A DNA stretch of 64,000 bases from the NCBI GenBank assembly GCA_963754655.1, contig CAVWGN010000001.1, positions 128,001-192,000 of the forward strand. Direction: 5' to 3'. Below the pieces are notes generated by a model. The model saw only the letters and a list, made by a program, of their open reading frames with translations. It was not told the DNA's origin and searched no databases. Each line of letters starts with the position of its first letter. The first letter of the stretch is position 1. The DNA is from an uncultured Chlamydiae bacterium (GTDB taxonomy: Bacteria > Chlamydiota > Chlamydiia > Chlamydiales > Parachlamydiaceae). Position numbers and translations under genes: made by a program. Of this stretch, positions 18,825 through 33,059 are shown in pieces.

Positions 18825-18933
18825 CCCTGGGCTGTCTTTATTGAAGCCTTTCAGGCTATTAAACAAATCAAGCGATTTGGTTATGTAAGGGACATCCCTG
18901 ATTCTTTGATCTCGCTCGTGTAAGGTTCTTTAA

Positions 18934-19635
18934 TTAGAGCTTAGCTTTAGACAAAGGGATGGCATTGAACATCATTTCAGCATACTCAAATGCCACGTAA
19001 GCCTCTTGAACAAGTTGGTTTTGAACTTGCTTATTGATTGCTAAACTATTTAATTTCTCTTTATAGAGCTCTTTAAAAGCATGCGTATTAGGTCTCCCCG
19101 ATGCTTTAAAGAGCTCAGAAAAATCATACAAATGAACAGCATCCGGCCATTTTTTTTCAATATATCTTTTAAGAATCATTCCACCAGACAAATCTCCCAA
19201 ATAACGCACATAAGCATGTGCGACGAGCAATAGGGGATAACTCCTTCCCAATTGACGGAGATGTTCAGCATAACGCAAAGCAGCTGCTGATGTTCGCCTC
19301 GGAAAATGCTTAAAAGAATCAGAATTTAAGTCTTCTTCAAGAGCTTGTTGCCGATTTAATGCAGGATAATTGATTTTTTTTAACTCTGGACAAATCTTGA
19401 GATTAAGTTGTATTTCCTCTTCCAGAACTGTATAAATCAATGTTAAATCTACTAAATACTGGTGGTAGCTTCTCCTTTCCAATGTCCCTTTTAGTAAATT
19501 TTTCATAAAAGAATGATTTTCAACGTGTGCATGAATGTCTTTGGTTCCTTCATACAAGGCTGTTGACAGCGCAGGAAGAGAGGGAGCAGATGCACCTGTG
19601 AAAGAGTTATCTAAGAAGATGTAAAATGAATTCAT
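18934..19635 (-). CDS. Biliverdin-producing haem oxygenase
   Basis: TKDIH (proximal His), LVAHAYVRYLGDLSGG, EA..AF. Confidence 0.92.
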   Translation of the reverse strand: MNSFYIFLDNSFTGASAPSLPALSTALYEGTKDIHAHVENHSFMKNLLKGTLERRSYHQYLVDLTLIYTVLEEEIQLNLKICPELKKINYPALNRQQALEEDLNSDSFKHFPRRTSAAALRYAEHLRQLGRSYPLLLVAHAYVRYLGDLSGGMILKRYIEKKWPDAVHLYDFSELFKASGRPNTHAFKELYKEKLNSLAINKQVQNQLVQEAYVAFEYAEMMFNAIPLSKAKL

Positions 19636-19737
19636 AAATATTCTCCAAATTAGTAGTAGTCAGATTGAAGGTTGATTTTTTTTCTCGATTTTATGCACTA
19701 ACGAATAGGAAATGGTCGAAAATCTCGCTTAAACTCG

Positions 19738-20058
19738 CTAACGTAAGGATTGAGTTTCAGGTTCCTCTTGTTCTTCCAGGAGGTGATTATTTTGCAATAG
19801 CATATTTTGATTCTCAATGGGAAAAGTGGTATTTGCAGCAATTTGTAGCTCATGCCAATAGCCGCGATCAAACCATCCTAGGCTTCCATTCCAAAAGAAA
19901 CAAAGAGTCACAATTCCCCATATAGGCCAAAAAAGATAGGTAAGTTTTAAAAATTTGGGTACCTTGGCATCAAAGGTTGCAATACCTGGATCTCCATAAA
20001 GCTCTATTTCCCCTTCAAAATGGGGATCCTCTACTTTATCTTTTCCTTCGTGAGGCAT
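19738..20058 (-). CDS. cbb3 CcoP N-terminal-like membrane protein with no haem motif
   Basis: DPGIATFDAKVPKFL plus a TM helix resembles the CcoP/FixP N-terminus (DGIEEYDNPLPxWW); no CxxCH. Confidence 0.5.
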   Translation of the reverse strand: MPHEGKDKVEDPHFEGEIELYGDPGIATFDAKVPKFLKLTYLFWPIWGIVTLCFFWNGSLGWFDRGYWHELQIAANTTFPIENQNMLLQNNHLLEEQEEPETQSLR

Positions 20059-20249
20059 GAACGCTCTCCTTGTTTGACTTCATCTTCTTGCATCATTTGA
20101 AATTTAGGTTCTTCATCCATATCTAAACGCTTTTTCTTCCATAAATACAAAAATATAAGGAAGGCACTCCCCACAAGGGAAATGACTAAACCATAGTGAA
20201 AAAAGTTGCCATATACCCCTATTCCATCGATGACTGCACAAATCGTCAT
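20031..20249 (-). CDS. Small cbb3 accessory membrane protein (CcoQ/CcoS-like)
   Basis: One TM helix followed by WKKKRLDMDEEPK; ATGA overlap with the ccoO stop. Confidence 0.5.
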   Translation of the reverse strand: MTICAVIDGIGVYGNFFHYGLVISLVGSAFLIFLYLWKKKRLDMDEEPKFQMMQEDEVKQGERSCLTKEKIK

Positions 20250-21556
20250 GGCAATTTCCTTTGCCCTTCAATAATTTCCTTAGTTTTAATCGGATCTTTT
20301 CCTAGCCACCATGCTTGAGTAGGAGGCGTAATGCGCGTTCCCTTAGTCATCATATACTGATAAATGGCTTCGAAGCGATAATTCGGAATTCCAATTGAAC
20401 TTTTGCCCGTTCCTCGTGGATCATGATCAAAAAAATGTTGGAAAGCAGGCATGATAGATCCTGCACTTGCTGTTTTTGGAGCCCAAAAGTGAGATTGATG
20501 CCAATCTCGGCTAGGTCTTTTGACTCCTACACGTGATAAATCGGGTCCAATGCGCCGAGTGCCTGGAAAAGTAATTTTTTGGTAGATGAACTCATTAGCC
20601 GAAGAAGGAGGAGCTGGGTATGAATCAGAACCGTTAAGCACCACATCTTGAATCAACGTGCGCGTTTGATCGGTATGACAATACCAGCATCCTTCAATGG
20701 CATAAATTTTTTCACCCAAATAAATAAGTTCTTGGCGTGAGTAAAACCCCAGCATAGGACTTGTCAATTCAGCCAAACCCTTCATAGGCCTTCCTTGAGG
20801 GTCATAACGCCAACGTTCTTGATCTCCATAATGAATCGGAATGATGCGAAATTCGCGCGGATTTTGCACATACACCACACCATATTCTTGATGATAAGGT
20901 TGTTTGACAGCGTCATCTAAAATCTTAAAATTCTCATCCACCCAATTTTGTAAAATTCCACCTGAAGGATCCAGGGAAAAAGCTTCTTGGACTTGAGGAT
21001 CATAGAGCTCTAAAATTTGATACTGAACTTTTGACGTTTCTTCTTCTTTTGATGCTTGGCTATGCTGCTCTTTCCCATTGTGTTGCAAATTTTTTTGCAA
21101 TTTTTCAGCGTGTGTGCGCATCTCGCTTTCTGGCTCGCGCAACATGAGCAAACGCGAAGTCAATTTAAGTTCAGGCTCTTGATAACGAGTAATGTATTTT
21201 TCCAATTCTTGTGGAGCAACCAAGCGCAAATTTTCAGATTCTTTAAAAGTGAGTAAGGTAAAATCTTGCTTGAGATGATGCACATATTGCAGTTCGTGAC
21301 CTCCTGTCGAGGCGCTGCTCATGTAATAATTGGGATCTTCAACTTCATACATCTGGACTTGATAAGGGCTAGATGGGCTCGTCCAAGTGGAGTCAATAAA
21401 ACGAGGAGCAACCAACACGGCCATGACCGACATTGAAAAAAGAAGAATGATGCCTCCGATCATCAGGATGGCAGAGCGATCTAACTTATGGACAAAGTGG
21501 GTATGCGGCTTTAGCTTTTCTTCTTGTGCTTTTTTTTCCTCTCTAGAATCTGTCAT
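20246..21556 (-). CDS. ccoO: cbb3-type cytochrome c oxidase subunit II, with a large insertion
   Basis: TM helix, G.KIYAIEGCWYCH, GTRRIGPDLSRVG, WH..HF..P, SIMP. Confidence 0.85.
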   Translation of the reverse strand: MTDSREEKKAQEEKLKPHTHFVHKLDRSAILMIGGIILLFSMSVMAVLVAPRFIDSTWTSPSSPYQVQMYEVEDPNYYMSSASTGGHELQYVHHLKQDFTLLTFKESENLRLVAPQELEKYITRYQEPELKLTSRLLMLREPESEMRTHAEKLQKNLQHNGKEQHSQASKEEETSKVQYQILELYDPQVQEAFSLDPSGGILQNWVDENFKILDDAVKQPYHQEYGVVYVQNPREFRIIPIHYGDQERWRYDPQGRPMKGLAELTSPMLGFYSRQELIYLGEKIYAIEGCWYCHTDQTRTLIQDVVLNGSDSYPAPPSSANEFIYQKITFPGTRRIGPDLSRVGVKRPSRDWHQSHFWAPKTASAGSIMPAFQHFFDHDPRGTGKSSIGIPNYRFEAIYQYMMTKGTRITPPTQAWWLGKDPIKTKEIIEGQRKLP

Positions 21557-22986
21557 ACACTTGCCCTCACTTCACGAGGGGTCTCGGGTTGTGAGGCTGG
21601 TTTAAGAACAATGGTGTTATACATGTTAATGACAAATAAAATGTTGCCTAATAAAATAATGACGCCTCCAATTCCTCTTAAAATCCACCACTCTCGCATA
21701 TCGGCAACCGTTTGCAAAAAAGGCAAGCGCGTGAGATTATCGTGAAACTCTGCATAAGAAGTGCCATCAGCCCAATTAGCCCACATCAAACCCTGTAAAA
21801 ATCCTCCCACCCAAAGAGAAAATAAAAAGAGCAAACTGCCCCAGAGATTCAGAGCAAAATGCCAATCAGCCAATTTATTTGACCACAGCGGCTTTTTGGT
21901 CATGGCAGGAATGGCTTGATAGATCCCTGCAATAGCAAAAAAAGTAAACGTCCCATACAAAGAAATATGCGAATGTCCAATCACCCAATCTGTTTTAGAG
22001 GTAATTTCATTGACATTTCGCAAAGCCATCAGAGGCCCTTGAATGCAAGTAATCAGATAGAAAATATTGCCCATCATTAAAAAACGAATAGGTGCACTCT
22101 GCAAATATTTAGACCAATCCTTTTGGAGCGTTGCAAAAAGATTATAAACGACTGTCCAAACAGGAATAAAAAGCCATATTGAAAAGACAATGGAGGTCGT
22201 TTGCAGCCACTGAGACATAGGACCATGAATTTGATGATGAGTGCCAATCCACGCGTAAATGAAAGCAATAGACCAAAAACCAATCATTGATAAGCGATGG
22301 CTATAAATAGGAGTATTGGCTAATTTGGGCAAAAAGTAGTAAGCCGTGGCTAAACCCATAGGAGTATAAATCAATCCAACTAAGTTATGGACATAAAACC
22401 AGCTAGCATTGACCCGCGACATCCCCTCTGGCAGCCAGTTTAAAACAAAATTCCCCACTAAAACGGTAAATGTTGTCCAAATGAGAGTTCCCATGCTGTA
22501 CCACAAAGAGACATATAATTTTTCAAAGCGTCGGTTGAAAATTGTCATCAAAAAATCTACTACCAACAGGATCCAACTGACAGCAAATAAAAACTTGATA
22601 GGCAGCCAAGAAATCCACATGGGCAGTTCAGCATATTCCCAGCCCCAATTTGTTCCCCATGGAAAAGAATTAGAACCTATAATGAGTGAAAACCACCATA
22701 AGGCTCCTGCCCAAAGAGCAAGAGAGGGACTCCATAAAGAAATTCCACATAAGCGCGGAATAAAGTAGAGCATCAGACCAATATCGACAGAAAGCAGCCA
22801 TAATAAGGTGACGGTACTGACATGCACGGGACGAACCCGTCCAAAGTGAATATATTCACCAGAAAAGTAATCGGGAAAAACAAAAGCATTAAACGCAATA
22901 AAGACGCCGACTATCATGCCAATGATCATGAAAACAATGGCTGGATAAATAAAGAGCTTAGCCGCTCTATCATCGTAAGTTACCAT
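21553..22986 (-). CDS. ccoN: cbb3-type (C-family) haem-copper oxidase subunit I
   Basis: GRVRPVH, EYAE, WFYVHN, PIYSHRLS, IYAWIGTHH (cross-link Tyr), DWVIGHSH; all six His ligands present. Confidence 0.93.
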   Translation of the reverse strand: MVTYDDRAAKLFIYPAIVFMIIGMIVGVFIAFNAFVFPDYFSGEYIHFGRVRPVHVSTVTLLWLLSVDIGLMLYFIPRLCGISLWSPSLALWAGALWWFSLIIGSNSFPWGTNWGWEYAELPMWISWLPIKFLFAVSWILLVVDFLMTIFNRRFEKLYVSLWYSMGTLIWTTFTVLVGNFVLNWLPEGMSRVNASWFYVHNLVGLIYTPMGLATAYYFLPKLANTPIYSHRLSMIGFWSIAFIYAWIGTHHQIHGPMSQWLQTTSIVFSIWLFIPVWTVVYNLFATLQKDWSKYLQSAPIRFLMMGNIFYLITCIQGPLMALRNVNEITSKTDWVIGHSHISLYGTFTFFAIAGIYQAIPAMTKKPLWSNKLADWHFALNLWGSLLFLFSLWVGGFLQGLMWANWADGTSYAEFHDNLTRLPFLQTVADMREWWILRGIGGVIILLGNILFVINMYNTIVLKPASQPETPREVRASV

Positions 22987-23249: not shown

Positions 23250-24566
23250 TTATAGTTGAGCGAAAGCTTGTTTAATGGTCTCTACCACCTTCTCCTGCTT
23301 TTGTAATTTCGCGTTAAGTTCATCAATTTGTGTATCTTTTTCTTGTGAACTTTTTTGTAAATTTTTCATTTGTGCATCTGTATTTTCTACTTGGGCTTGT
23401 AGAATTAAATTTTTCATTTTTTCTTGCTGGATGAGCTCTTCTTTTAATTTTTTTTCTTTCAATAATTCGTCAAAATCCTTTTGCTTAACTTCTTGTTGAG
23501 ATTGAGTCTTTTGAGAGACCTCTTTCTCACTCTTAAGTTCTTGATTTAAAGAAGAAATCTTTTTTTCTTGTTGGTTAATTCGTTCATTCAATTGAACTTT
23601 ATCTTCTTTTAATTGCAAACACTTCTCCTGATTTTCAAGATGTTCCAATTGATCGAGTCGAATTTTTTCATTTAAAGCAACGATTGCCTTTTGTTGACTC
23701 TCATATCGAGTTTTAATATCTGTCTGTTGATTTTTTTCAACTTGAATTGTATCTTTTAAAGAAAAGATGATTTGTTCTTGATGATTAAACTTCTGATTCC
23801 AAGCGGCTTGCTCTGATTGATAATTGGTTGCCAATTGCTGATATTGATTTTTTAAATGGATATTCATATCTTCTTGGGCACGCAGTTTTTCTTCCCATAA
23901 AGAAAGGGTGTTATTCCAAGAGGTTTGCATCCTGTATTTTTCTAACTGTAATTGAACCATGGAAGTAGCAATTCGATCTTTTTCCTTGGATAAGGCTTGA
24001 TGACTCAATTCCTTTTCTTGCAATTTTTGTGAAACGATTTTCAGATCGTTGTCTTTTTGTGTAAGATCGTTAGAGAGCTGTTCATTTTTTGATAGGGATT
24101 CATCGATCTTTCTCTTTTTTTGTGCCACCTCTTCTTCAAGTGTTGTACATTGCTCTTCTAATTTTCTTTTTTTACTCTCTTCTACCTGAAGTTGCTCTCT
24201 CTTTAGGACAAGCTCATAATTTTTTTGCATGGTCTGTTTTTGGGTTTCTTGAAAGGTCATTTTATCTTGTGCTCTTTTGTCTCTAAGCTCTTGATAACAA
24301 TGTTCTAGTTCAATTAATTTAAAACTCTTTAATTCATTTTTCTTTTCAGATGCATCAGGTTGTGTTTTAATGATCTCCTCTAACTCTTTTATTTTCAAAC
24401 ATACCCCTTGTCTTTCTAAGGGGTTGAGAAGTCTAAATTTTTTGATCCCTTCCTTTTGTTTAGATGAACAACTTTCTGAAGAGACATCAGGTGTTGGTGT
24501 TGATTGAGAAAGAAGGAGATGATTGTCATTATGACAAGAAGGGAAAGAAAAGTTTGACGCTTGCAT
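23250..24566 (-). CDS. Coiled-coil hypothetical protein, effector-like
   Basis: Q/E/K-rich heptads over most of its length, a Ser/Pro/Thr-rich N-terminus and an extremely AT-rich upstream spacer. Confidence 0.7.
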   Translation of the reverse strand: MQASNFSFPSCHNDNHLLLSQSTPTPDVSSESCSSKQKEGIKKFRLLNPLERQGVCLKIKELEEIIKTQPDASEKKNELKSFKLIELEHCYQELRDKRAQDKMTFQETQKQTMQKNYELVLKREQLQVEESKKRKLEEQCTTLEEEVAQKKRKIDESLSKNEQLSNDLTQKDNDLKIVSQKLQEKELSHQALSKEKDRIATSMVQLQLEKYRMQTSWNNTLSLWEEKLRAQEDMNIHLKNQYQQLATNYQSEQAAWNQKFNHQEQIIFSLKDTIQVEKNQQTDIKTRYESQQKAIVALNEKIRLDQLEHLENQEKCLQLKEDKVQLNERINQQEKKISSLNQELKSEKEVSQKTQSQQEVKQKDFDELLKEKKLKEELIQQEKMKNLILQAQVENTDAQMKNLQKSSQEKDTQIDELNAKLQKQEKVVETIKQAFAQL

Positions 24567-24750: not shown

Positions 24751-27700
24751 TTAAGCAACATTTTTCTTTTGAGGTACAAAAGTCCTTCTCTTTCCACTTG
24801 GCTTTTTTTCTTCTGATTTTTGACTCTCAGATCGTGGCTCTTTCCTTTCTTCCTGCTGATTGAGCTTGATCACTATGTTAGCCTGTTCGTCTGCCAAACG
24901 CAGAGCTTCTTCCGTATCAGTAATCAATTTAGCCTTTATCTTTTTATAGCCTTCAATATTTGCTTGATGGATGCTGAGCTCTTCTCTTTGCTCAGCGGAA
25001 GAGATTTTACCTTCAGTGATTCGGCGTTGTTGCTCTAAGGAAGCAATCTGTTTATCTAATTCATTGACAATTTCTTTGCGAATTAATCGAATATGCTCTT
25101 TCACTTGTAAATTTTGATGCACAAGGAGTTGATGACTTTGCCAAGTATAACGATTGGCATTGAGGCGAATTAAATTAAAATAAGTTTGTAAGACAGATTG
25201 AGGAATCTCTTTGCTCATGAGGGTAATGCCAACATGATAGTAAAGATCTCGTTCATTCTTCAGTTGGGTTTTTATATTGAGCAGTTGTTGATCTCGATCT
25301 TCCAAACTCTTCATTTTCTTTTCCACCTCCAAATTTTTTTCATAAATTTGCAAAACTTCTTGTGACTGTGCTGGTCCCTCTGTCATTTTGCGCTCTAATT
25401 TTTCTTGTTGCATACGAAATTGATTCATTTCTTTTTGAAGCTGCTCAATTTGTTTACTTCCATCAATTCGAGCATTTTCAACAGTTAATTGCGCCATTTC
25501 AAAAGCTTGATAAAGTGCTTGGAATAATTGGCTGCGCTGCTCTTGCTCTTGCGTCAAAGAACGAAGGAAGATGACTAATTGCAAACGTTGCAGCGAGTTA
25601 GTAAAATCCCCCCAAGGAGTCATCGCAGTGCCTGGAACCCCATATTTGATGGATCGTAAAAGCCGTAAATCATCGTGGGAATTAATCCAATCCAAATTAG
25701 TCAACATGCGAGGCTTTGCCTCTTGCATGGCTTGAGCGCGTGCTCCACTCCCATCGGCTTCATTTCCATGGCAAACAGCGCAGTTGATGAGAAAGAACTT
25801 CTGTCCTTCTTCAATGTTATAAGGAGTGTAATATTTTTTTTTGATATAATAGCTATCCTGACCTGTATCGGTTGGATTGGAAATAACATCGAAAACATCT
25901 TCGACCTTATTCTGCTGCTGAACGCCTTTTGGAGCTTCTCTAGGGTAAATTTCAGGAGTAATGGAAGCATAGTAAGTGTCATTTGGCGCGAGTAAAAGAG
26001 AAAGATTGTTATCGGGAATTGGCGCGGGATTATTTTCTTCAGGCATTTCGCGTTCAGGCGGTTGGATCTGCTTGATTCCTTCTTTTGATTGTTGCTCCGG
26101 CGTCATTGGAATAAAATGTCCACCTTCCTTCTCTAGCTCTTTTAAGACATCTTCAGGAGTATATTGCCATTTAGGTACGTCAGTTGATTGGCGAATCACC
26201 TCTCCACCAGGCAGCGTTGAAAAGAGCCAATTGACGAGATAGCGAATTTCACTTTCTTTTAAAACACTCTGTCCATGAGAAATTTTTTGAATATCAACTG
26301 GTTTATGAGGTGCAACTTCATCCCATGGAGGCATTGGAGTCCCTTTTACGCCATGCTTAATCGAATAGATGGCCTTATCTTTTGTTAAGTTACGCAAAAA
26401 TTCAGGATTGTGGAGGTTCTTGGGAATAGGATAAATCCACTCCGCAATGGCACCATTTCCCACTAAGCCTATTCCATGGCATTGCGCACATAACATGTCA
26501 TAGGCTTCTGCTGGATTAAATCCCCGATGATCCCAAATTTGACGAATGGCATTGCGATTATGGACAGCAAGCACATCCAACATATGCGTCAAAGCATAAA
26601 ATTTTGTATCATCAAAGGGAAAGAGTGGCATAAGGGAGTGAGGGACGTGGCTTGAGGGATTGTGAAAATGTTCCATCAACCATTCATCAGTGCGATAAAT
26701 TCCCGACCAATTTAAATGGGGCCCAATGAGGCGGCCAAGTCCATAAGTTTGAATATACATCATGAGTACGCGATGAATGCGATCTTTCCAATTTTGCCAT
26801 TCTGCTTTAATTTGAACAACTTTCTTAGGATCTTTTTCTTGTTTGATTAAAGACTCATACTCGGCATTTTTAGCTCTTGAAGCATAACGAAAAGGAGAAT
26901 AGAGCGACTCAATGACTTCCGGATGATTGCGATCTATTTCTTCTAAAATTCCATTTTGCCGAACATGATTGACAATTCGTTCATCAATTTCTTTCGCATG
27001 TTGATCAATGATTGTCACCATTTCTGAGCCAGGCAATTCTTCATCATAAGAAGAAAAGTGCACAACTTCTGGAAAGAGTTTCCTAAACCAAAGTTGCTGT
27101 TCATAAAGTTGATCAAAAGAAGGCAATTCCTCTTTTTCAACGGCAAATCCCACATTGGAATCAAATCCTTGCAAGCGATGGCAAGCTGCACATCCCTCTG
27201 TGGCAAATACGGTCATGGCATAGCGCAAATCATACATTTTTGCAGGAGAGATAGGCTTTTCAACAGACGTTTTACGCCCTGCTTCCCACGATTGGACGGC
27301 AGCTTGGTAATCTGTTTTAGCCATCGCACGACTGCTCCCTTTTTGGGCAAGAAGGAAGGTCATTAAATCTTCTAGTTCTTTAGAATCAAAATGCATATTA
27401 GGCATGGTGGAGGTGGGCAAATCTCCTTGCGGCCAAACCAGCTTCCTTTTTAAATACCACGGATAGTTATCGCCAGAATGAGTCAACTCAGGTCCCACTC
27501 CTCCTCGCGAAAATCCTGTAATGCGATGACAAGCATAACAAGCTTGTGAAAGATAGAGCTCTTTTCCTCTTTGGTAATCGCGCGTTAATTCATCCACATC
27601 AGAAATCATCGCCGCTATCAGCTTTCTATCTTTTGTCGCTTCGGAAAAAGATTGCTGAGCTTCTTGCGCATGGCGCATAAGATCCTGGTTGAGATCTAAT

Positions 27701-29022
27701 GCCGCCGCTTTTGTAAATAAAATTCCAGTCGCTTGTGCATCATGCTGATGCTGCTTAAGAAAAGAATCAACTTCTTCTAGTCCCTTAGTTCGATAAGCCT
27801 GTTCTAATCCATTGACTAAAAATTCTGATCCCAATAAATGCATTAAATCTTGATTAAGCTTGTCAATGACACTCTCTTTTGCTCCTTTTTCTTCAACTTG
27901 ATTTTTAGCAGCCTGTTCTAAATATTTCACTTGTGAGGCCAAATGCTCAAGTTCAAGCGCCGGCAAAGAGTAATCTGTTTCTTTGATTTGCAATTGCTTA
28001 ATTGTTTTGGAATACCCCTGCTCATTCACCATTTGGTATAATTTAAGTAAATCGACAGCTGCCTGTTTTTCATTTTGGTAGGCGTCTGTCAATGATTTGA
28101 CTTTCTGTTGTTGCATCAAAGCCAAATCAGAGACAGATGTCTCTGCTCCAGCAAGTTTAATATCAGATGTTTGATGGCATTGCACACATTTTGATTGGAT
28201 TAAAGCTCCAACAAAAATAGGCTCTGTTTGAAAAATTAAATGATCTCCAGGCTTATGATTAAAGATACGAGCAAACTGCGGATCATTTTTCGCATCCTGC
28301 TCTGTAAATTGAGGCATAGGACCTAAATCTTCAATTTCATATTGTCCATCAAAGACTGGACCATGTGCTTTATCGGTGACGAGTCCACGCCCATTTCCAT
28401 TATGACACGATGTACAGCCATATTCTTCTAACGGATGGTATTCAAAAGGGTAAGTTTCATTACCCATAAGAGGATGCATCGTCAAAACTTTTGTTACGTC
28501 GTAAACGACATCTCCCACATGGGCAGTTTTCAAAGCTTCATATTGGTTTGCTTGATCTAATCGTTGCGTGATTTCCCCAGCTTGACCTTGACCTCTGAGT
28601 TGTTCGAGGACTTTTTCATCGCGAAGTGCTGCAATTTTTTCATCTAATTTTTGCCAAATATACTCTTCATTTGGAACTAAAACAGGATGACCTTTTTGGT
28701 CACGCACAATATTTCCATTAAGATCATGCGCAACTTTAGTCGGAGAAAAATAAGGAATTTGAAGAGCAACATGACAAGAAATGCAGCGATCGATGCTTGG
28801 AGGGCCGCGATCCTCGCGTTCTAAAACAATTTGCCGGATTCCTGACTGGAAAATTGGCGGAGATTGATGTGTATAAGTCGAGCGAAATTCTTCTAATGCC
28901 AGGTAGTCATTCTGATAAATTTTGTACTCAGGGAAAATTTCGCGGTATAGAAAAATACCAAAAAAAGCTGCGACAATCACTCCTGCTAAAATCAATAAAA
29001 TCTGGTAAGTATCTGCTCGCAT
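24751..29022 (-). CDS. Membrane-anchored hepta-haem c-type cytochrome (1423 aa)
   Basis: N-terminal TM helix; CISCH, CTSCH, CVQCH, CYACH, CAACH, CAQCH, CAVCH; distal Met motifs TMPN, LMPL, GTPMPPW, GTAMTPW. Confidence 0.88.
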   Translation of the reverse strand: MRADTYQILLILAGVIVAAFFGIFLYREIFPEYKIYQNDYLALEEFRSTYTHQSPPIFQSGIRQIVLEREDRGPPSIDRCISCHVALQIPYFSPTKVAHDLNGNIVRDQKGHPVLVPNEEYIWQKLDEKIAALRDEKVLEQLRGQGQAGEITQRLDQANQYEALKTAHVGDVVYDVTKVLTMHPLMGNETYPFEYHPLEEYGCTSCHNGNGRGLVTDKAHGPVFDGQYEIEDLGPMPQFTEQDAKNDPQFARIFNHKPGDHLIFQTEPIFVGALIQSKCVQCHQTSDIKLAGAETSVSDLALMQQQKVKSLTDAYQNEKQAAVDLLKLYQMVNEQGYSKTIKQLQIKETDYSLPALELEHLASQVKYLEQAAKNQVEEKGAKESVIDKLNQDLMHLLGSEFLVNGLEQAYRTKGLEEVDSFLKQHQHDAQATGILFTKAAALDLNQDLMRHAQEAQQSFSEATKDRKLIAAMISDVDELTRDYQRGKELYLSQACYACHRITGFSRGGVGPELTHSGDNYPWYLKRKLVWPQGDLPTSTMPNMHFDSKELEDLMTFLLAQKGSSRAMAKTDYQAAVQSWEAGRKTSVEKPISPAKMYDLRYAMTVFATEGCAACHRLQGFDSNVGFAVEKEELPSFDQLYEQQLWFRKLFPEVVHFSSYDEELPGSEMVTIIDQHAKEIDERIVNHVRQNGILEEIDRNHPEVIESLYSPFRYASRAKNAEYESLIKQEKDPKKVVQIKAEWQNWKDRIHRVLMMYIQTYGLGRLIGPHLNWSGIYRTDEWLMEHFHNPSSHVPHSLMPLFPFDDTKFYALTHMLDVLAVHNRNAIRQIWDHRGFNPAEAYDMLCAQCHGIGLVGNGAIAEWIYPIPKNLHNPEFLRNLTKDKAIYSIKHGVKGTPMPPWDEVAPHKPVDIQKISHGQSVLKESEIRYLVNWLFSTLPGGEVIRQSTDVPKWQYTPEDVLKELEKEGGHFIPMTPEQQSKEGIKQIQPPEREMPEENNPAPIPDNNLSLLLAPNDTYYASITPEIYPREAPKGVQQQNKVEDVFDVISNPTDTGQDSYYIKKKYYTPYNIEEGQKFFLINCAVCHGNEADGSGARAQAMQEAKPRMLTNLDWINSHDDLRLLRSIKYGVPGTAMTPWGDFTNSLQRLQLVIFLRSLTQEQEQRSQLFQALYQAFEMAQLTVENARIDGSKQIEQLQKEMNQFRMQQEKLERKMTEGPAQSQEVLQIYEKNLEVEKKMKSLEDRDQQLLNIKTQLKNERDLYYHVGITLMSKEIPQSVLQTYFNLIRLNANRYTWQSHQLLVHQNLQVKEHIRLIRKEIVNELDKQIASLEQQRRITEGKISSAEQREELSIHQANIEGYKKIKAKLITDTEEALRLADEQANIVIKLNQQEERKEPRSESQKSEEKKPSGKRRTFVPQKKNVA

Positions 29023-29039
29023 TATTTATTCCTAAGCAA

Positions 29040-30365
29040 CTAGTGCCTTGCAAAATTTTCTGTCCATGGCCATACCCAACCCCAGTTTGCTCCCCTAAAA
29101 TAGGTTCCAATGATAATGAGAATTCCTTGCCAAGTCATGAATAGGGTATAGAAGAAGATGGCAAGATAACGGCTGCGATGAAACCAGACACCTTCTCCAT
29201 GAGGATTGCGATCCAAATAAGGAATTGCCATCAACCCCAACACCATAAGACTTGGAATTCCCACTCCTCCCCAAAAAGCATTATAAGCGACCATTTCTTG
29301 TAGCCCTAAAAAGTACCAAGGAGCTTTTGAAGGATTTGTCGGTTTTGTTGGATTCGCAGGTTCTTCCAAAGGAGCATTGATAAAAGATAATGCCAATACA
29401 ACAGCTGTCGTTAACAAAAAAACAAGAAGTTCAGCACGCAGCAAATGTGGCCATGTAAACACAAAATTATAGGGACCTTTATCCACTGTGGGACAAGTTC
29501 CTCGTACGAGTTCCATCAATCCATAAGTACGTTTGACACCTGGTGCAAAAGATTCTTTTGTATCAGAACGCTGAACAACACGATAAGGAGCAGGTCGAAA
29601 TTTATCTGGCGGACGAGAAAGCCCACCATCCTTACGGATACGCCAGAAATGTACACCAATTAATGTTCCTGCTATTAAGGGCAAAACAGCCACATGTAGA
29701 ACATAAAAACGAATCAAGGCATCTTGCCCGACAACGGTCGATGCTAGTAACATCACACGGTTGACATTGTATTCAAAGCCCGGCAGATTAGGAACATAAC
29801 CTGCGATATTGGTTCCAACTGTAATCGCCCAAAAGGCCAGTTGATCCCAAGGCAGTAAATAACCTGTAAAAGATAAAACAAGCGTGAGAACCATCAGTAT
29901 CACACCAATGACCCAGTTAAAACGTCGTGTGCCTTTATATGATCCTGTATAAAAAACGCGTGACATATGCAAAAAGACAAACAGAACCATGAGATGGGCG
30001 CTCCAGCGATGCATATTGCGATACATCATGGCAAAGGGCGTTGTATCTTGCCAATCTTTCATGATCTCATAGGCGCGATCTTCAGCAGGAATGTAATAAA
30101 ACATGAGAATAACGCCAGTAAAGGTCAAAAATAGAAATAAGCTGGTCGTAATGGTCCCAAGGCCAAGCGTATAAAAGGGATCAAGCGAATGTTTGTGACA
30201 CTTGACCGGATGGAAATGCAAAAAAAAGTTTTTAAAGACAATCTCGGAGCGATCGACATCATTATTGGGATAATTATGACGAAAAATGGATCGTACAAAT
30301 AGAGAAGGAAGATTGGCTAGATATTCTCCCCATGTTTCCCTTTTTTTTCCTTGAAAAACAGCCAT
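29040..30365 (-). CDS. Cytochrome b of a Rieske/b complex (b6-like domain fused to a subunit IV-like domain)
   Basis: [11 protein letters not shown]...[15 protein letters not shown]-x14-H in helix [10 protein letters not shown] (PEWY equivalent), PYLD; SD AAGGAG before the ATG at 30365. Confidence 0.92.
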
Positions 30366-30895
30366 AAATGACTTCTGCTCCTTATGTTGGTAGGTAAATA
30401 CCAGGCAGCATCCCAATCCAGCGTTGTTTTAGACTTGTCAACCATCAAATCTCCTGATGCTGCTTTAAAGACTTTAAAATAAACAAGCGGTAAAGGAGCG
30501 GGGCCTCCCGTATTTTTTCCATGACGATCATAGGTCGATCCATGGCAGGGACAAGCATAGCCCGTTTCCACCATGTTGACCGTACACCCCAAATGCGTAC
30601 ATACAGCAGTTTGCACCCTCACTTTTCCAGACAAGGTTTCCACAAAGACTTTTTGCTTAGGATAAAACAATTTTCCATCCCGCGACAAAATCTCTTCAGG
30701 ACGCCCAATTGAAAAAATACTTGGAGGAACTTTCATGGCATTAGGATATAAAAATCCTAAAACTGAAGCCCCAACTAATTGGCCTGCTCCTATCAAGCAA
30801 GCTCCAACTCCCATCAGCGCCAAAAATGAGCGCCTGGAAATGCGAGGATCTTTATCTTCTGGATCGACATTTAACGTATTTCTATATTTTGGCAT
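30317..30895 (-). CDS. Rieske [2Fe-2S] protein
   Basis: Tat motif [26 protein letters not shown]. Confidence 0.93.
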
Positions 30896-30907
30896 TTTTC
30901 ATCTCTT

Positions 30908-31048
30908 TCAACTATCAGGGTTTTCTTCTCGAAATAACTGGTATTTAACAGCTTCATCATCTTCAAATTGTCCTTTGCGCCAATAGTAAACGTAAAGTCC
31001 AAGACCGCCTAAAGCTGCTGCTATCGAACCGATAATCATCCAAAACAT
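30908..31048 (-). CDS. ccoS: cbb3 oxidase maturation protein CcoS-like (46 aa, absent from the ORF track)
   Basis: MFWMIIGSIAAALGGLGLYVYYWRKGQFEDDEAVKYQLFREENPDS; TM helix plus W-x-x-GQF(E/D)D motif; GGAG SD upstream. Confidence 0.75.
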   Translation of the reverse strand: MFWMIIGSIAAALGGLGLYVYYWRKGQFEDDEAVKYQLFREENPDS

Positions 31049-31214
31049 CTATACTACTCCTTCACTTTACTTTTGGCACCTTGGATAATTCTCTGAAACC
31101 TCCTTCGATTAAACGATTGCTAGTGGATCACTATTAAACAATATGGAACACTTACAATCATTTTATCCCCGGGCTTTCAATCAGTCCAATAGGCAAAAAC
31201 TAATGTAAACGTTA

Positions 31215-33059
31215 CTAACCTATCCAACGAAACGAATAATTCATAACATCCATGGTCACTGCCTGAGTGGGACATTTTTCAGCACAAAGCCCACAGCGAA
31301 TGCAAACATCTTCATCTTTAAGCATGGCTGTTCCCATCTCAGCTAAATCTTCATCATCCATACTTGATGAATTGACCCCATAAAAATTATCAACAGCGCG
31401 GCGTAATTCTCCATCTCCTAAATCAAGATTCAGCTTGCTGATGGGAATTTGCTTTAGGCAATTACATGGACAAACATCTACACAACCATTGCATTTGATG
31501 CATAAAGTGCCATCGAAAACCGGAGAAACATGGCATTGAAGACAGCGGTGAGCTTGATTGTGTGCCTCTTCGGCCGTATAATTATTTTCCACCATGTTTT
31601 CATTTTTCACTCTGATTTGAGGAGGCTGCATGGTGGGCAACGCCCATTTGGTGCGCAGATAGGTTTTATCACGCATGGGAGGAATTTCAGTAAATTCTCC
31701 TACAAATTCTTGATAGGGTTTTGTTCCACGCAAATCGCTGTCAATGGAACGAGCAGCTTCTTGACCATGCCGAATGCCAGTAATGAACAAAGCAGGCCCA
31801 AAAGCAGCATCACCTCCTGCATACACTCCTTTAACGGAGGTACGTCCCGACTCACGTTCTGTTTTGATGATGCCTCGATCAATTTTGAGTTGATCTTTTT
31901 GATCCCAGCCATCAAAAATGCTGAGATCCATCGCTTGTCCAATGGCTAAGGCAATGGTATCGCAAGGAATGACATATTGACTATCAGGAATATATTTAGG
32001 AGCAAACCGCCCGGTGTGATCAAAGAGCGAATAAATGGGTTGGACGCGTAGCCCAATGACTTTACCCTCTGCATTGCGTTCTACAGCAATAGGTCCGACG
32101 CGATTGATGATTTTAATCCCTTCTTCAATTCCATCTTCAATTTCAAATTCATCTGCTGTTTGTTCATCCCTCGATTCTAAACAAACCATGGTCACAGTTT
32201 GAGCTCCATTACGAACTGATGTGCGAGCAACGTCAAAAGCCACATTTCCTCCGCCCACAACCACAATGTGTTTGCCAATTTTCCAGGGCTCTTCTACGCA
32301 ACGTACACGCAAATATTCAATGCCGCGAATAATATCAGGAGCATCTGCACCTGGGATAGGAAGATCACGCGACTTCCATAATCCAATTCCAATAAAAACA
32401 GCTTGATAGCGCTGCATGAGCTCTGTCAGGGTAATGTCGCGACCGACTTTCATATTGTAGTGAATTTTAGCACCCAAATACTCAATGGCATAACATTCGT
32501 TAATGGCAATCTCATTTTTCAGGCGATAGGACGGAACGCCATACACCAACATGCCACCAGGTAAACGCATCATTTCATAGATATCGACAGCATATCCCAA
32601 CCGCAGTAAGTCATGCGCACAAGTCAAAGAAGCAACACCCGCACCAATACAGGCAACACGCAATCCATTGGGTTCTGGGTGAGTAGAACCGCGAGCATAG
32701 CTAAATTCTAAGGATTTGACATGCGCCTCTTTGCTAAGACCAAACCACTCATCCAAGTAGCGTTTTTGGGCACGAATGGTCAGTGTTTTGTCAATGCGGT
32801 CGCGCCTGCAAGTCACTTCACAGGGAGCGCCGCAAATCATTCCGCAAATGGAGGCAAAGGGATTGGGCCCACGTGCAATCTTATATCCTTCTAAAAGATT
32901 GCCCGCATGCAAGGCCATCATGTAGCCTCGGCCATCTGTTTTGACAGGACAGCCATCACGACAATCAATTTGACGAATAAAATAATCCAAATCCGGAATG
33001 GTGACATCATAAAGCTCTCGATAGCTCTCAATGATCTTTTCATCTTGTTCATCTGTCAT
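31215..33059 (-). CDS. FAD/NAD(P)-binding Fe-S oxidoreductase, GltD/NfnB/DsrL-like, with a C-terminal 2x[4Fe-4S] ferredoxin
   Basis: CRDGCP, CGMICGAPCEVTC, GGML.YG.P.YRL, VVVGGGNVAFD, RCLQC, CIKCNGCVDVCP, CIRCGLCAEKCP. Confidence 0.88.
   Translation of the reverse strand: MTDEQDEKIIESYRELYDVTIPDLDYFIRQIDCRDGCPVKTDGRGYMMALHAGNLLEGYKIARGPNPFASICGMICGAPCEVTCRRDRIDKTLTIRAQKRYLDEWFGLSKEAHVKSLEFSYARGSTHPEPNGLRVACIGAGVASLTCAHDLLRLGYAVDIYEMMRLPGGMLVYGVPSYRLKNEIAINECYAIEYLGAKIHYNMKVGRDITLTELMQRYQAVFIGIGLWKSRDLPIPGADAPDIIRGIEYLRVRCVEEPWKIGKHIVVVGGGNVAFDVARTSVRNGAQTVTMVCLESRDEQTADEFEIEDGIEEGIKIINRVGPIAVERNAEGKVIGLRVQPIYSLFDHTGRFAPKYIPDSQYVIPCDTIALAIGQAMDLSIFDGWDQKDQLKIDRGIIKTERESGRTSVKGVYAGGDAAFGPALFITGIRHGQEAARSIDSDLRGTKPYQEFVGEFTEIPPMRDKTYLRTKWALPTMQPPQIRVKNENMVENNYTAEEAHNQAHRCLQCHVSPVFDGTLCIKCNGCVDVCPCNCLKQIPISKLNLDLGDGELRRAVDNFYGVNSSSMDDEDLAEMGTAMLKDEDVCIRCGLCAEKCPTQAVTMDVMNYSFRWIG

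What the first reader, a model, noticed from the sequence alone, without database searches (positions are those of the whole stretch)
18934..33059. Respiratory supercluster linking an NAD(P)/Fe-S flavoprotein, a Rieske/b complex, a hepta-haem cytochrome and a cbb3 oxidase in a chlamydia
Seen: co-oriented genes for a GltD/DsrL-type flavoprotein, CcoS, Rieske, cytochrome b, a 7-haem cytochrome c, CcoN, CcoO, two small membrane proteins and haem oxygenase. Known: Rieske/b complexes encoded with an NAD(P) oxidoreductase and multihaem cytochromes are described in anammox Planctomycetota (Kuenenia), where bifurcation to NAD(P) was proposed; pathogenic Chlamydiaceae use cytochrome bd and lack complexes III and IV. 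Inference: this may be a microaerobic III-IV supercomplex with an attached cytoplasmic NAD(P)H module, either feeding electrons in or making NAD(P)H. I know of no characterised example with a cbb3 oxidase as the sink.
Basis: partly seen in the sequence, partly recalled or inferred. Interest (0 to 1): 0.82.

Follow-up and report, generated by a model that had tools for sequence, protein, structure and literature searches.

The report
Flavoprotein-linked Rieske/cytochrome b-cbb3 respiratory operon
An environmental chlamydia encodes, in one gene cluster, a quinol-oxidising Rieske/cytochrome b complex, a giant seven-haem cytochrome, a high-affinity oxygen reductase and an NAD(H)-type iron-sulfur flavoprotein, an oxygen-linked cousin of the puzzling complexes of anammox bacteria.

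Summary
On the minus strand (18934-33059) lie a GltD/NfnB-like Fe-S flavoprotein, CcoS, Rieske, a fused b6/SUIV cytochrome b, a 1423-aa cytochrome c with 7 CxxCH, CcoN, a long CcoO and two small membrane proteins. Haem oxygenase is a neighbour only within the genus.

- In 41 related genomes, flavoprotein and cytochrome b occur in exactly the same 24.
- Gene order is kept across chlamydial families.
- Outside chlamydiae, 44 of 48 loci with a full-length homologue carry cytochrome b beside it, under about 14 phylum labels including Brocadiales.
- Six loci (Ignavibacteriota, Verrucomicrobiota, Acidobacteriota) also carry the multihaem cytochrome (Ignavibacteriota: split 5+2) and ccoNO.
- The flavoprotein is not an ordinary GltD: all NCBIfam scores are below cut-off, the genome has no GltB, and it falls in a separate clade.

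There is no stand-alone CcoP. One small protein resembles the CcoP membrane anchor.

I read this as the cbb3-coupled form of the anammox-type NAD(P)-oxidoreductase Rieske/b complex. Physical association and direction of electron flow are untested.

Complex III and cbb3 in environmental chlamydiae are in print; the flavoprotein link is not in the papers searched. This scan has already noted the same module on other genomes.

The parts
31215..33059 (-). Fe-S flavoprotein (614 aa), NfnB/GltD-like with an extra C-terminal 2x[4Fe-4S] ferredoxin domain. Candidate cytoplasmic NAD(H)-linked subunit of the Rieske/b complex.
   Evidence: Pfam Fer4_20, Pyr_redox_2, Fer4. Best NCBIfam hit PRK12771, 392.8 bits against a cut-off of 516. 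16 conserved Cys in a 40-sequence alignment. AF2 model pLDDT 91.9. Foldseek top hits NfnABC 9bov_A, StnC 8oh5_C, NfnB, GltD. C-L-E where NADPH-binding relatives have Y-R-R. Linked to cyt b in relatives.
30908..31048 (-). CcoS/FixS-like cbb3 maturation protein (46 aa, one helix)
   Evidence: Read from sequence. Pfam FixS E=4.5e-6, 26.7 bits, above cut-off 23.1. TIGR00847 21.8 bits, below cut-off. Kept between flavoprotein and Rieske in chlamydial loci and in verrucomicrobial L099. Stays with ccoNO in G001/G006, which lack the Rieske/b part.
30317..30895 (-). Rieske [2Fe-2S] protein with Tat-like signal; box [10 protein letters not shown] ('SY' type)
   Evidence: Pfam Rieske. NCBIfam PetC/Rieske_proteo partial hits and TAT signal 16.3 bits. 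SY in 12 of 12 chlamydial orthologues sampled.
29040..30365 (-). Cytochrome b, with b6-like and SUIV-like halves fused (441 aa from Met18; the ORF runs up to 30416). It has a family-specific N-terminal extension with an invariant His.
   Evidence: Pfam Cytochrome_B. NCBIfam ExtP 245 bits and ExtQ 66 bits, both below cut-off. Best PDB hit cytochrome b6, 4e-36; Thr aligns with the b6 Cys35 position. His of the 'LH' motif in 57 of 57 flavoprotein-linked cyt b sequences; KAPWYF in place of PEWY.
24751..29022 (-). Membrane-anchored cytochrome c, 1423 aa, 7 CxxCH, coiled-coil inserts and tail. Presumed wire from Rieske to the oxidase; it carries the only CcoP-like haem domain in the genome.
   Evidence: Pfam Cytochrom_C, Cytochrome_CBB3, weak FixO. 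TIGR00782 ccoP partial match at residues 1062-1152. The only ccoP-family match in the genome lies here. 7 CxxCH in 36 of 40 chlamydial loci with this ORF. 7-haem proteins of about 600 aa at the same place in L099, L101, L102, L119.
23250..24566 (-). 438-aa Q/E/K-rich coiled-coil ORF interrupting the cluster. Not a conserved member.
   Evidence: No Pfam family. Only a weak SMC coiled-coil hit. No tblastn match in relatives, where the cyt c to ccoN gap is -163 to +256 nt in 27 of the 30 relatives' loci measured.
21553..22986 (-). CcoN, catalytic subunit of a C-family (cbb3-type) haem-copper oxidase
   Evidence: Pfam COX1 273 bits. TIGR00780 277 bits, below the equivalog cut-off. PDB 3mk7_A 2e-60, with H55, H200, Y244, H250, H251, H338, H340 aligned to H60, H207, Y251, H257, H258, H345, H347.
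20246..21556 (-). CcoO, mono-haem subunit, 436 aa, with an insertion of about 220 aa between the membrane helix and the haem domain
   Evidence: Pfam FixO at residues 279-379. NCBIfam ccoO partial. 373-474 aa in chlamydial loci against 189-219 aa in non-chlamydial clusters.
20031..20249 (-). 72-aa single-helix protein in the CcoQ position, with weak likeness to CcoS
   Evidence: No family hit. Conserved after ccoO in chlamydial loci. tblastn cross-hits with CcoS in L020, L022, L023.
19738..20058 (-). 106-aa single-helix protein, probably the membrane anchor of CcoP without its haem domains
   Evidence: No Pfam hit as a single sequence. A profile of 21 orthologues (A3) gives CcoP chains as the top 4 PDB matches, best 9g83_v E=0.0051, aligned to the N-terminal anchor.
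18934..19635 (-). Haem oxygenase, a co-oriented neighbour. Adjacent only within the genus.
   Evidence: Pfam Heme_oxygenase 146.9 bits. Found next to the cluster only in L016/L035.

Best explanation
**What it is.** This is the chlamydial, cbb3-coupled form of a widespread Rieske/cytochrome b complex. That complex carries a cytoplasmic NfnB/GltD-like Fe-S flavoprotein, the same kind as the 'NAD(P) oxidoreductase' complexes of anammox bacteria.

**What the sequences show.**
- The genes, their cofactor motifs and their conserved order.
- Strict co-occurrence and co-loss of the flavoprotein with Rieske/b.
- The absence of a stand-alone CcoP.

**What I infer about the high-potential branch.**
- Menaquinol is oxidised at the Qo site.
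- The high-potential electron runs Rieske -> seven-haem cytochrome -> CcoO -> CcoN -> O2.
- No soluble carrier is needed. The giant cytochrome replaces both cytochrome c1/f and the haem domains of CcoP, and CcoP survives only as an anchor peptide.

**What I infer about the low-potential branch.**
- On the cytoplasmic face, the flavoprotein's four Fe-S clusters connect FAD, and the NAD pool, to the low-potential b haems.
- The connection may run through an extra haem held by the invariant N-terminal His.
- The nucleotide site looks NAD(H)-type rather than NADP(H)-type.

**Direction.** It is not shown. I put about 0.8 on the architecture. Within it I lean as follows:
- About 0.45: NADH -> flavoprotein -> b haems -> menaquinone at Qi, making the module a self-contained NADH-to-oxygen chain.
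- About 0.35: the reverse, quinol-driven NAD+ reduction.
For: **Gene content and motifs:**

**Synteny and co-occurrence**
- Gene order is kept in 12 of 14 relatives' stretches and across the chlamydial loci.
- Flavoprotein and cyt b are found in the same 24 of 41 genomes; CcoN is found in 27.
- G001 and G006 keep CcoS-CcoN-CcoO-small-small but have lost flavoprotein, Rieske, cyt b and cyt c together.
- Outside chlamydiae, 44 of 48 full-length homologues with enough flank have cyt b in the locus, against 1 of 6 homologues whose match stops short of the C-terminal ferredoxin domain.
- Six loci also carry cyt c + ccoNO.

**Phylogeny**
- Rieske/b-linked flavoproteins form one clade (99).
- Chlamydiae (100) sit with all cbb3-linked rows (90). 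Brocadiales fall inside the linked clade.
- The cyt b tree recovers the same major groups.

**Family hallmarks**
- 16 conserved Cys and an invariant R505 before the first C-terminal Cys.
- An invariant His in the cyt b N-terminal extension, 57 of 57, also present in a Brocadiales copy.
- Hauser et al. 2025 (PMC12954380, sections 3 and 13 read) model just such a His-ligated haem and an Arg contact.

**Oxidase**
- CcoN ligands are conserved.
- No CcoP is found apart from a 24-bit match inside the cytochrome c.

**Nucleotide and quinone**
- C-L-E replaces the Y-R-R of five NADPH-binding relatives.
- MenD is present. MqnA/D is absent. Ubi hydroxylases score below cut-off.
Against: - No physical or expression evidence was obtained.
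- The two trees disagree on the exact sister of the chlamydial clade. In the flavoprotein tree it is verrucomicrobial L099 (95, a long branch). In the cyt b tree it is an 18-row clade without linked oxidase (95).
- The canonical Cys for haem cn, present in the Brocadiales copies, is absent here. The low-potential end therefore differs from the anammox models.
- Flavoprotein and cyt b can be unlinked. In the Capsulimonadaceae genome they lie 3.2 Mb apart. In two chlamydial MAGs they are on different contigs.
- No flavoprotein-Rieske or flavoprotein-cyt b fusion was seen among 9 longer relatives scanned, out of 150 listed.
- On direction, the 'SY' Rieske (300-350 mV by the correlation in PMC3509893) in a menaquinone organism fits the rival bifurcation scheme at least as well as mine.
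- The organism has other NADH dehydrogenases according to the literature on its relatives.
Confidence: 0.45

Rival explanations
1. Same architecture, opposite direction. Qo-site bifurcation sends one electron of menaquinol to O2 through Rieske, the seven haems and cbb3. It pushes the other through very low-potential b haems and the Fe-S chain to reduce NAD(P)+. This is the anammox proposal with oxygen as the high-potential sink.
For: - Orthology with the Brocadiales flavoprotein/Rieske/b clusters.
- Hauser et al. 2025 measured Rieske potentials above +300 mV in a menaquinone organism and argue that this fits NAD(P)H generation (abstract and section 3).
- The chlamydial Rieske is 'SY' type in 12 of 12 sampled. 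Baymann et al. 2012 correlate this type with 300-350 mV (legend passage).
- The genome has MenD but no ubiquinone hydroxylase above cut-off.
- The closest solved relatives are reversible bifurcating enzymes: NfnABC, StnABC, NfnB.
Against: - If a Qi site exists, NADH would reduce menaquinone through the same wire and short-circuit the scheme. Nothing here shows that the Qi site is lost.
- Carriers are mostly aerobic heterotrophs or an intracellular symbiont, with no obvious shortage of NADH (inference).
- The anammox reaction itself has never been demonstrated.
- The SY/SF correlation fails for the anammox proteins, which are SF/GF in the Brocadiales copies yet were measured above +300 mV.
Confidence: 0.35
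2. The flavoprotein is a soluble enzyme of unrelated function (glutamate synthase small subunit, PreT/DPD-like, DsrL-like or a ferredoxin-linked reductase). It merely shares an operon or neighbourhood with the respiratory genes.
For: - It has no membrane helix, and its fold is that of soluble NfnB/GltD enzymes.
- In a Capsulimonadaceae genome the gene lies far from cyt b.
Against: - Identical presence/absence with cyt b in 41 genomes, and joint loss in G001 and G006.
- 44 of 48 linked loci in other phyla.
- Congruent major clades in both trees.
- All GltD-type NCBIfam scores are below cut-off.
- No GltB in the genome.
- No NfnA-like partner among the neighbours.
Confidence: 0.07
3. Two ordinary, separate complexes (a bc-type complex and a cbb3 oxidase) that are only co-regulated. 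The giant cytochrome c acts as a membrane-tethered shuttle, not as part of a fixed supercomplex.
For: Adjacent bc and oxidase genes do not by themselves prove a supercomplex. The coiled-coil linkers of the 1423-aa cytochrome could act as flexible tethers.
Against: - No stand-alone CcoP is found, and the only CcoP-like haem domain is in the giant cytochrome.
- The CcoP anchor peptide is retained.
- Cytochrome c and ccoNO stay adjacent in four phyla.
Confidence: 0.13

Closest known systems
Anammox Rieske/cytochrome b complexes with an NAD(P) oxidoreductase subunit (Kuenenia Kuste4569-4574 and Kustd1480-1485; Kartal 2013 as cited in, and modelled by, Hauser et al. 2025, PMC12954380)
   Same: - Flavoprotein gene beside Rieske and a b6-type cytochrome b, followed by a multihaem cytochrome c.
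- Flavoprotein in the same clade as the Brocadiales copies.
- Same domain order and Cys pattern.
- Conserved Arg before the C-terminal clusters, and a conserved His in the cyt b N-terminal extension.
   Different: - The sink is a cbb3 oxidase instead of an HAO-like octahaem protein.
- Cytochrome b is fused, not split.
- The canonical haem-cn Cys is missing.
- The cytochrome c has 7 haems and is 1423 aa long.
- The host is an aerobic intracellular heterotroph, not an anaerobic autotroph.
cbb3-type cytochrome c oxidase CcoNOQP (Pseudomonas stutzeri, PDB 3mk7/5djq) and solved bc1-cbb3 supercomplexes (6xkw family; 8smr)
   Same: - CcoN with all seven aligned metal-ligand/Tyr positions.
- A mono-haem CcoO.
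- A CcoS maturation factor.
- Small single-helix subunits.
   Different: - No dihaem CcoP. Only an anchor-like 106-aa peptide remains, and the haem domains sit in the giant cytochrome c.
- CcoO carries an insertion of about 220 aa.
- Gln is aligned to Glu323 of the Pseudomonas enzyme.
Electron-bifurcating NfnB-type modules (NfnI 5jca_L, NfnAB 4ylf_B, NfnABC 9bov_A/9n5u_A, StnC 8oh5_C) and GltD (6s6s, 2vdc)
   Same: Fold and cofactor layout of the first ~450 residues. In NfnABC/StnC the alignment also runs through the ferredoxin-like domain: 645-648 aligned columns, TM 0.69 on the query.
   Different: - 27-31% identity.
- C-L-E where these have the Y-R-R of the NADPH site.
- No NfnA/GltB partner.
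- The partner here is a membrane cytochrome b.
Geobacter Ext cluster cytochrome b ExtP / membrane protein ExtQ (NCBIfam NF040969, NF040970)
   Same: These are the best-scoring named families for the two halves of the cytochrome b: 245 and 66 bits.
   Different: Both scores are below the family cut-offs (290, 150). The chlamydial protein is a fusion of both halves. The context is an oxidase, not selenite/tellurite reduction.
Actinobacterial III2IV2 supercomplex with dihaem QcrC (recalled; its cyt b chains appear among weak PDB hits)
   Same: The idea of a hard-wired quinol-to-oxygen chain in a menaquinone organism without a soluble cytochrome c.
   Different: That system uses an aa3 (A-family) oxidase, a dihaem wire and no flavoprotein. 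It is not homologous at the level of the cytochrome c.

Membership tests
Anammox-type NAD(P)-oxidoreductase Rieske/cytochrome b complex | Flavoprotein gene encoded beside Rieske and cytochrome b | tested here: met
   The window has flavoprotein-CcoS-Rieske-cyt b. The same holds in 12 of 14 relatives' stretches. The Brocadiales contig L090 has the same trio twice.
Anammox-type NAD(P)-oxidoreductase Rieske/cytochrome b complex | Flavoprotein = Fer4_20 + FAD/NAD(P) domains + C-terminal ferredoxin domain, with Cys for four Fe-S clusters | tested here: met
   Pfam domains. 14 invariant and 2 nearly invariant Cys in 40 sequences. Only homologues whose match reaches the C-terminal domain are cyt b-linked: 44 of 48, against 1 of 6.
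Anammox-type NAD(P)-oxidoreductase Rieske/cytochrome b complex | Flavoprotein orthologous to the anammox subunits | tested here: met
   Both Brocadiales copies fall inside the Rieske/b-linked clade (SH-aLRT 99), apart from unlinked homologues. Identity to the window protein is 32-35%.
Anammox-type NAD(P)-oxidoreductase Rieske/cytochrome b complex | His in the N-terminal extension of cytochrome b, proposed to ligate an extra interfacial haem b (His43/His62 in the Kuenenia models) | tested here: inconclusive
   An invariant His (ORF residue 67; 50 from Met18) is present in 57 of 57 linked cyt b sequences and in the Brocadiales copy read. Its identity with Kuenenia His43 could not be checked, because I had no Kuenenia sequence.
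Anammox-type NAD(P)-oxidoreductase Rieske/cytochrome b complex | Covalent haem cn (Cys of the b6 'FYCLGG' motif) | tested here: not met
   Thr aligns with b6 Cys35. The Cys is present at or next to that position only in L078, L090 and L077 (three further rows carry a Cys later in the segment), out of 61 rows. Chlamydiae instead have a clade-specific Cys73 (12 of 12).
Anammox-type NAD(P)-oxidoreductase Rieske/cytochrome b complex | Split b6 + five-helix SUIV, and an HAO-like octahaem partner | tested here: not met
   Cytochrome b is one 441-aa chain. No octahaem HAO-like gene is present; ccoNO follows instead.
Anammox-type NAD(P)-oxidoreductase Rieske/cytochrome b complex | Flavoprotein physically bound to the cytoplasmic face of the cytochrome b dimer | not testable with these tools
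   This needs purification, complexome profiling or a structure.
cbb3-type (C-family) haem-copper oxidase | CcoN with haem b, haem b3 and CuB ligands and the cross-link Tyr | tested here: met
   H55, H200, Y244, H250, H251, H338, H340 align with H60, H207, Y251, H257, H258, H345, H347 of 3mk7_A. The roles of these residues are recalled.
cbb3-type (C-family) haem-copper oxidase | Mono-haem CcoO | tested here: met
   FixO match with one CxxCH. The protein is atypically long: 436 aa.
cbb3-type (C-family) haem-copper oxidase | Dihaem CcoP subunit | tested here: not met
   The only TIGR00782 match in the genome is 24.3 bits, inside the giant cytochrome c. The 106-aa protein matches only the CcoP anchor.
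cbb3-type (C-family) haem-copper oxidase | CcoS/FixS maturation factor | tested here: met
   Pfam FixS above cut-off.
Glutamate synthase small subunit (GltD) / PreT | Score above the curated family cut-off, and a GltB (or PreA) partner | tested here: not met
   TIGR01317/01318/01316 and the PRK models all score below cut-off. No PF01645 match in the 96.7%-complete genome.
NfnAB-type bifurcating transhydrogenase | NfnB-like subunit with an NADPH site (Y-R-R) and an NfnA partner | tested here: not met
   The fold matches. The site reads C-L-E, and no NfnA-like gene is in the cluster.

The most novel reading that the evidence does not exclude
Aerobic bacteria of many phyla, including environmental chlamydiae, use the Qo site of a Rieske/cytochrome b complex as a quinol-based electron-bifurcating device. 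Oxygen, through a hard-wired cbb3 oxidase, acts as the pull. Reduced pyridine nucleotide is made directly from menaquinol, without reverse complex I and without spending proton-motive force. If so, the anammox proposal would be one special case of a general and much more tractable aerobic mechanism.
Probability: 0.3. Interest if true: 0.88.

Novelty: new variant of a known kind. Interest (0 to 1): 0.66.

Why it matters
- **Scope.** Rieske/b complexes with an NAD(P) oxidoreductase have been discussed only for anammox bacteria. There they are hard to study, and the proposed quinol-driven NAD(P)+ reduction has never been shown. The same flavoprotein-Rieske/b unit turns up under about 14 phylum labels.
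- **A testable sink.** In chlamydiae, Verrucomicrobiota, Acidobacteriota and Ignavibacteriota it is wired to an oxygen reductase. That supplies a defined, easily controlled high-potential acceptor and aerobic carriers in which to test the mechanism.
- **Chlamydial biology.** It adds a direct link from the NAD pool to complex III/IV, which published reconstructions list only as 'PetBD' and 'CcoNO'.
- **Annotation.** 'Glutamate synthase small subunit' is a misleading label for this gene.

Tried and rejected
**Steps that gave no usable answer**
- Complex prediction of two copies of cytochrome b (residues 11-441) with the flavoprotein's C-terminal domain (residues 478-614). It returned no verdict: score 0.18, mark 0.32, controls not run. 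The size limit kept out the full flavoprotein and the haems.
- Public RNA runs: no RNA holder was listed for window 24000-33500, so co-transcription could not be examined.
- Promoter/terminator consensus scan of 18500-35500. Promoter-like sites were not above shuffles, and there were no convincing intergenic terminators. It is uninformative about operon structure.
- Fusion ('Rosetta stone') search. I scanned 9 of the 150 listed representatives, picked because they are longer than the query. They carry response-regulator, TPR or rubredoxin-like extras but no Rieske or cytochrome b domain.
- PDB sequence search with the giant cytochrome c gave only one small class-I cytochrome (6h5l_B) for the last haem domain.
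- Pfam at E up to 10 found nothing for the 72-aa and 106-aa proteins as single sequences.

**Literature**
- Six searches found no paper describing the flavoprotein in the chlamydial cluster, or outside anammox.
- The library holds open-access papers only. Kartal 2013 and de Almeida 2016 were not seen.
- The Ignavibacterium album paper and the Waddlia iron-starvation paper turned out not to bear on the cluster.

**Ideas considered and dropped**
- That the flavoprotein oxidises NADPH from the pentose-phosphate pathway. This was suggested by a transaldolase gene upstream and by GltD precedent. It was weakened by the C-L-E site.
- Haem oxygenase as a member of the cluster.

Full report
**Setting.** The window is G000:C1:128001-192000 of a 3.16-Mb genome in two contigs, 96.7% complete. 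Its closest relatives are MAGs labelled Parachlamydiaceae, and the same-genus locus L035 has a flavoprotein 92% identical. The genome has three haem-copper oxidase subunit I genes: two long ones elsewhere and the C-family gene of this cluster.

**Observation.** ORF listing, Pfam and NCBIfam confirm a co-oriented minus-strand series:
- A 614-aa flavoprotein (Fer4_20, Pyr_redox_2, C-terminal 4Fe-4S dicluster).
- A 46-aa CcoS, read from the sequence. Pfam FixS scores 26.7 bits, above cut-off.
- Rieske.
- Cytochrome b, whose halves score best against ExtP and ExtQ, i.e. a fused b6 + SUIV.
- A 1423-aa cytochrome c with seven CxxCH.
- CcoN.
- A 436-aa CcoO whose FixO match covers only residues 279-379.
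- Two single-helix proteins of 72 and 106 aa.
- Haem oxygenase.

**Conservation within chlamydiae.**
- The flavoprotein was found in 24 of 41 genomes (G000 plus 40 relatives) at 74-92% identity. Cytochrome b was found in exactly the same 24. CcoN was found in those plus G001, G006 and G035.
- In 12 of 14 20-kb stretches fetched around the flavoprotein gene, the order flavoprotein-CcoS-Rieske-cyt b-cyt c-CcoN-CcoO-small-small is intact. L026 lacks the oxidase part in the stretch fetched. L029 stops after Rieske, and its cyt b lies on another contig.
- In G001 and G006 the oxidase genes remain with CcoS, but flavoprotein, Rieske, cyt b and cyt c are all gone. G035 is cut by a contig end.
- Of the 46 public chlamydial loci plus the window, 40 have the cytochrome c ORF. 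In 36 of these it has seven CxxCH. The other four are truncated or broken (L032, L033, L037, L066). CcoO is 373-474 aa where complete.
- The 438-aa ORF has no counterpart. The cyt c to ccoN gap is -163 to +256 nt in 27 of the 30 relatives' loci measured. It is 1765 nt in the window, and also large in L032, L056 and L061.
- Haem oxygenase follows the cluster only in the same-genus genome.

**Beyond chlamydiae.**
- A HMMER search of 1.84 billion representatives gave one chlamydial representative at 77% identity. Next came about a hundred full-length proteins of about 600-650 aa at 34-45%.
- An alignment of 40 of these retrieved 64 non-chlamydial loci.
- Of the 54 loci with at least 2.5 kb downstream, 45 contain a cytochrome b homologue, 43 of them within 4 kb downstream. 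Of the 48 whose match reaches the C-terminal ferredoxin domain, 44 do. Of the 6 whose match does not, 1 does.
- The linked loci carry labels of Acidobacteriota, Planctomycetota, Verrucomicrobiota, Lentisphaerota, Ignavibacteriota, Calditrichota, Nitrospirota, Actinomycetota, Chloroflexota, Myxococcota and several candidate phyla. These are MAG labels as deposited, and some may be mis-binned.
- The Brocadiales contig L090 holds two tandem sets of flavoprotein-Rieske-b6-SUIV-hexahaem-octahaem. This is the gene content that Hauser et al. 2025 describe for Kuste4569-4574 (section 3 read).
- Six loci also carry cytochrome c and ccoNO: Ignavibacteriota L093 and L122, Verrucomicrobiota L099, and Acidobacteriota L101, L102 and L119. 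L099 also has a CcoS-like ORF after the flavoprotein. In the acidobacterial loci the flavoprotein gene follows ccoO.
- In these loci the cytochrome has seven CxxCH in about 600 aa, or 5 + 2 in two genes. CcoO is 189-219 aa.
- The exceptions were followed up. The Capsulimonadaceae genome has a 57%-identical cyt b 3.2 Mb from the flavoprotein gene. The Dehalococcoidia and Coriobacteriia genomes have no cyt b, and their flavoproteins fall outside the linked clade.

**Trees.**
- In the flavoprotein tree (78 rows; quick search, SH-aLRT only) the Rieske/b-linked proteins form one clade (99), with the Brocadiales inside it.
- A 20-row subclade (90) holds all cbb3-linked rows and the chlamydiae. It also holds L098 and the short contig L113.
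- The chlamydiae are monophyletic (100). Verrucomicrobial L099 is their sister (95), but L099 is a long branch.
- The cytochrome b tree (58 rows, LG+G4) recovers the same major groups, monophyletic chlamydiae (100) and one clade of non-chlamydial cbb3-linked rows (91).
- It differs in placing the chlamydiae as sister (95) to an 18-row clade without linked oxidase, inside a poorly resolved 39-row clade (96). The two proteins therefore broadly co-diverge, but the origin of the chlamydial copy is not settled.
- Baymann et al. 2012 already grouped Parachlamydia and Waddlia cytochrome b with two Kuenenia sequences (legend and text passages).

**The flavoprotein.**
- The AF2 model is confident (pLDDT 91.9, pTM 0.91).
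- The best structural matches are the NfnB-like chains of NfnABC (9bov_A, 9n5u_A) and StnABC (8oh5_C). NfnB, Xfn, GltD and DPD follow.
- Fourteen Cys are invariant and two nearly so, enough for four clusters. R505, just before the first C-terminal Cys, is invariant. Hauser et al. model four clusters and an Arg (Arg511/Arg550) near the propionates of a predicted extra haem (section 13 read). I could not verify the equivalence by numbering.
- At the end of the second Rossmann strand, five NADPH-binding relatives read Y-R-R. The window reads C-L-E, and E295 is conserved in at least 90% of the 40 sequences. That the Arg pair binds the 2'-phosphate is recalled knowledge. On that basis the site looks NAD(H)-type.
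- It is not a glutamate synthase subunit. All GltD-type NCBIfam models score below cut-off, and no GltB domain is found in the genome.

**Cytochrome b and Rieske.**
- PDB alignment begins only at residue 63 of the 441-aa protein, and Thr aligns with the haem-cn Cys35 of b6.
- The preceding extension is family-specific. Its 'LH' His is present in 57 of 57 linked sequences, and the Arg of 'FR' in 53 of 57.
- Chlamydiae alone have a Cys in 'HPVKCHKH' (12 of 12).
- The Qo motif reads KAPWYF.
- The canonical cn Cys (at or next to that position) occurs only in L077, L078 and L090.
- The Rieske box II is CPCHGSTY in 12 of 12 chlamydial sequences. Other linked Rieske proteins are SF (32), SY (7) or AF (1).
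- Baymann et al. relate SY to 300-350 mV and SF to 200-230 mV.
- The genome has MenD above cut-off, no MqnA/D, and no ubiquinone hydroxylase above cut-off. Menaquinone is therefore the likely quinone.

**The oxidase.**
- All seven ligand/Tyr positions of Pseudomonas CcoN are conserved. Gln replaces Glu323.
- The only ccoP-family match in the genome lies inside the giant cytochrome c, at 24.3 bits.
- A profile of 21 orthologues of the 106-aa protein hits CcoP chains as its four best PDB matches, on the N-terminal anchor. The signal is weak: best E = 0.0051.

**Interpretation.**
- Shown: gene content, motifs, conserved order, co-occurrence, joint loss, and membership of the flavoprotein in the anammox-containing clade.
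- Inferred: the flavoprotein docks on the cytoplasmic face of the cytochrome b dimer. The heptahaem cytochrome conducts electrons from Rieske to CcoO/CcoN in place of c1/f and CcoP. The module links menaquinol, O2 and NAD.
- Direction is open. NADH to menaquinone is downhill and needs no special tuning. It would make the cluster a complete NADH-to-O2 chain.
- The reverse needs very low-potential b haems and no competing Qi reaction. It is favoured by the high-potential-type Rieske in a menaquinone organism and by the anammox argument.
- I lean 0.45 to 0.35 towards input.

**What is in print.**
- Dharamshi et al. 2023 reconstruct CcoO/N in the chlamydial ancestor. They reconstruct PetBD in the G2 ancestor, with loss in Chlamydiaceae. 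'Glutamate synthase' does not occur in their main text (passages read); their supplementary data were not opened.
- Koenig et al. 2017 report late up-regulation of respiratory genes in Protochlamydia (passages read); their supplements were not opened.
- Six searches found the flavoprotein-Rieske/b link discussed only for anammox.
- Earlier notes of this scan describe the same module in at least eight other windows and reach the same closest-known system. I saw them after my own tests.

Noticed in passing
window 23250-24566 (-): A 438-aa Q/E/K-rich coiled-coil ORF is inserted between the cytochrome c gene and ccoN. It has no family hit and no counterpart at this position in any relative examined. 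Three other chlamydial loci (L032, L056, L061) also have large gaps at this junction, so it may be an insertion hot spot.
   Followed up: partly
G001:C10 (L142) and G006:C3 (L141): Two relatives keep CcoS-CcoN-CcoO and the two small proteins but lack flavoprotein, Rieske, cytochrome b and the heptahaem cytochrome. They are natural deletion variants whose oxidase has no obvious electron donor.
   Followed up: partly
window 20246-21556 and 24751-29022 (-): Chlamydial CcoO (373-474 aa) and the heptahaem cytochrome (about 1080-1420 aa) are about twice the length of their counterparts in other phyla (189-219 aa and about 600 aa). The extra length comes from inserted, partly coiled-coil segments of unknown role.
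   Followed up: partly
window 29040-30365 (-), residue 73 of the ORF: A Cys in the motif HPVKCHKH is present in 12 of 12 chlamydial cytochrome b sequences and in none of 45 others, while the canonical haem-cn Cys is absent. This may be an alternative covalent haem attachment, or it may be unrelated.
   Followed up: no
window 33183-35033 (-): A class-I methyltransferase (Methyltransf_32) and a transaldolase/FSA-type gene lie just upstream of the flavoprotein. The pair recurs upstream in several Parachlamydiaceae loci (L033-L035, L037, L049), at variable distance.
   Followed up: no
window 35298-35849 (-): A 183-aa ORF with a weak eukaryote-type F-box match (Pfam E=2.9e-4), as seen in effectors of amoeba symbionts.
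   Followed up: no
window 16711-17759 (-): A short DDE transposase fragment (143 aa, Pfam DDE_Tnp_1) and a neighbouring 191-aa ORF in a stretch with 32% G+C, just beyond the cluster.
   Followed up: no
L090 (Brocadiales MAG contig): Two complete flavoprotein-Rieske-b6-SUIV-hexahaem-octahaem sets lie in tandem about 9.5 kb apart. Each is followed by a near-identical 123-aa ORF.
   Followed up: no
L072 (contig labelled Ardenticatenaceae): An 83-residue stretch 94% identical to the chlamydial flavoprotein sits at the end of a 4.9-kb contig binned to Chloroflexota. This is probably a mis-binned chlamydial fragment.
   Followed up: no
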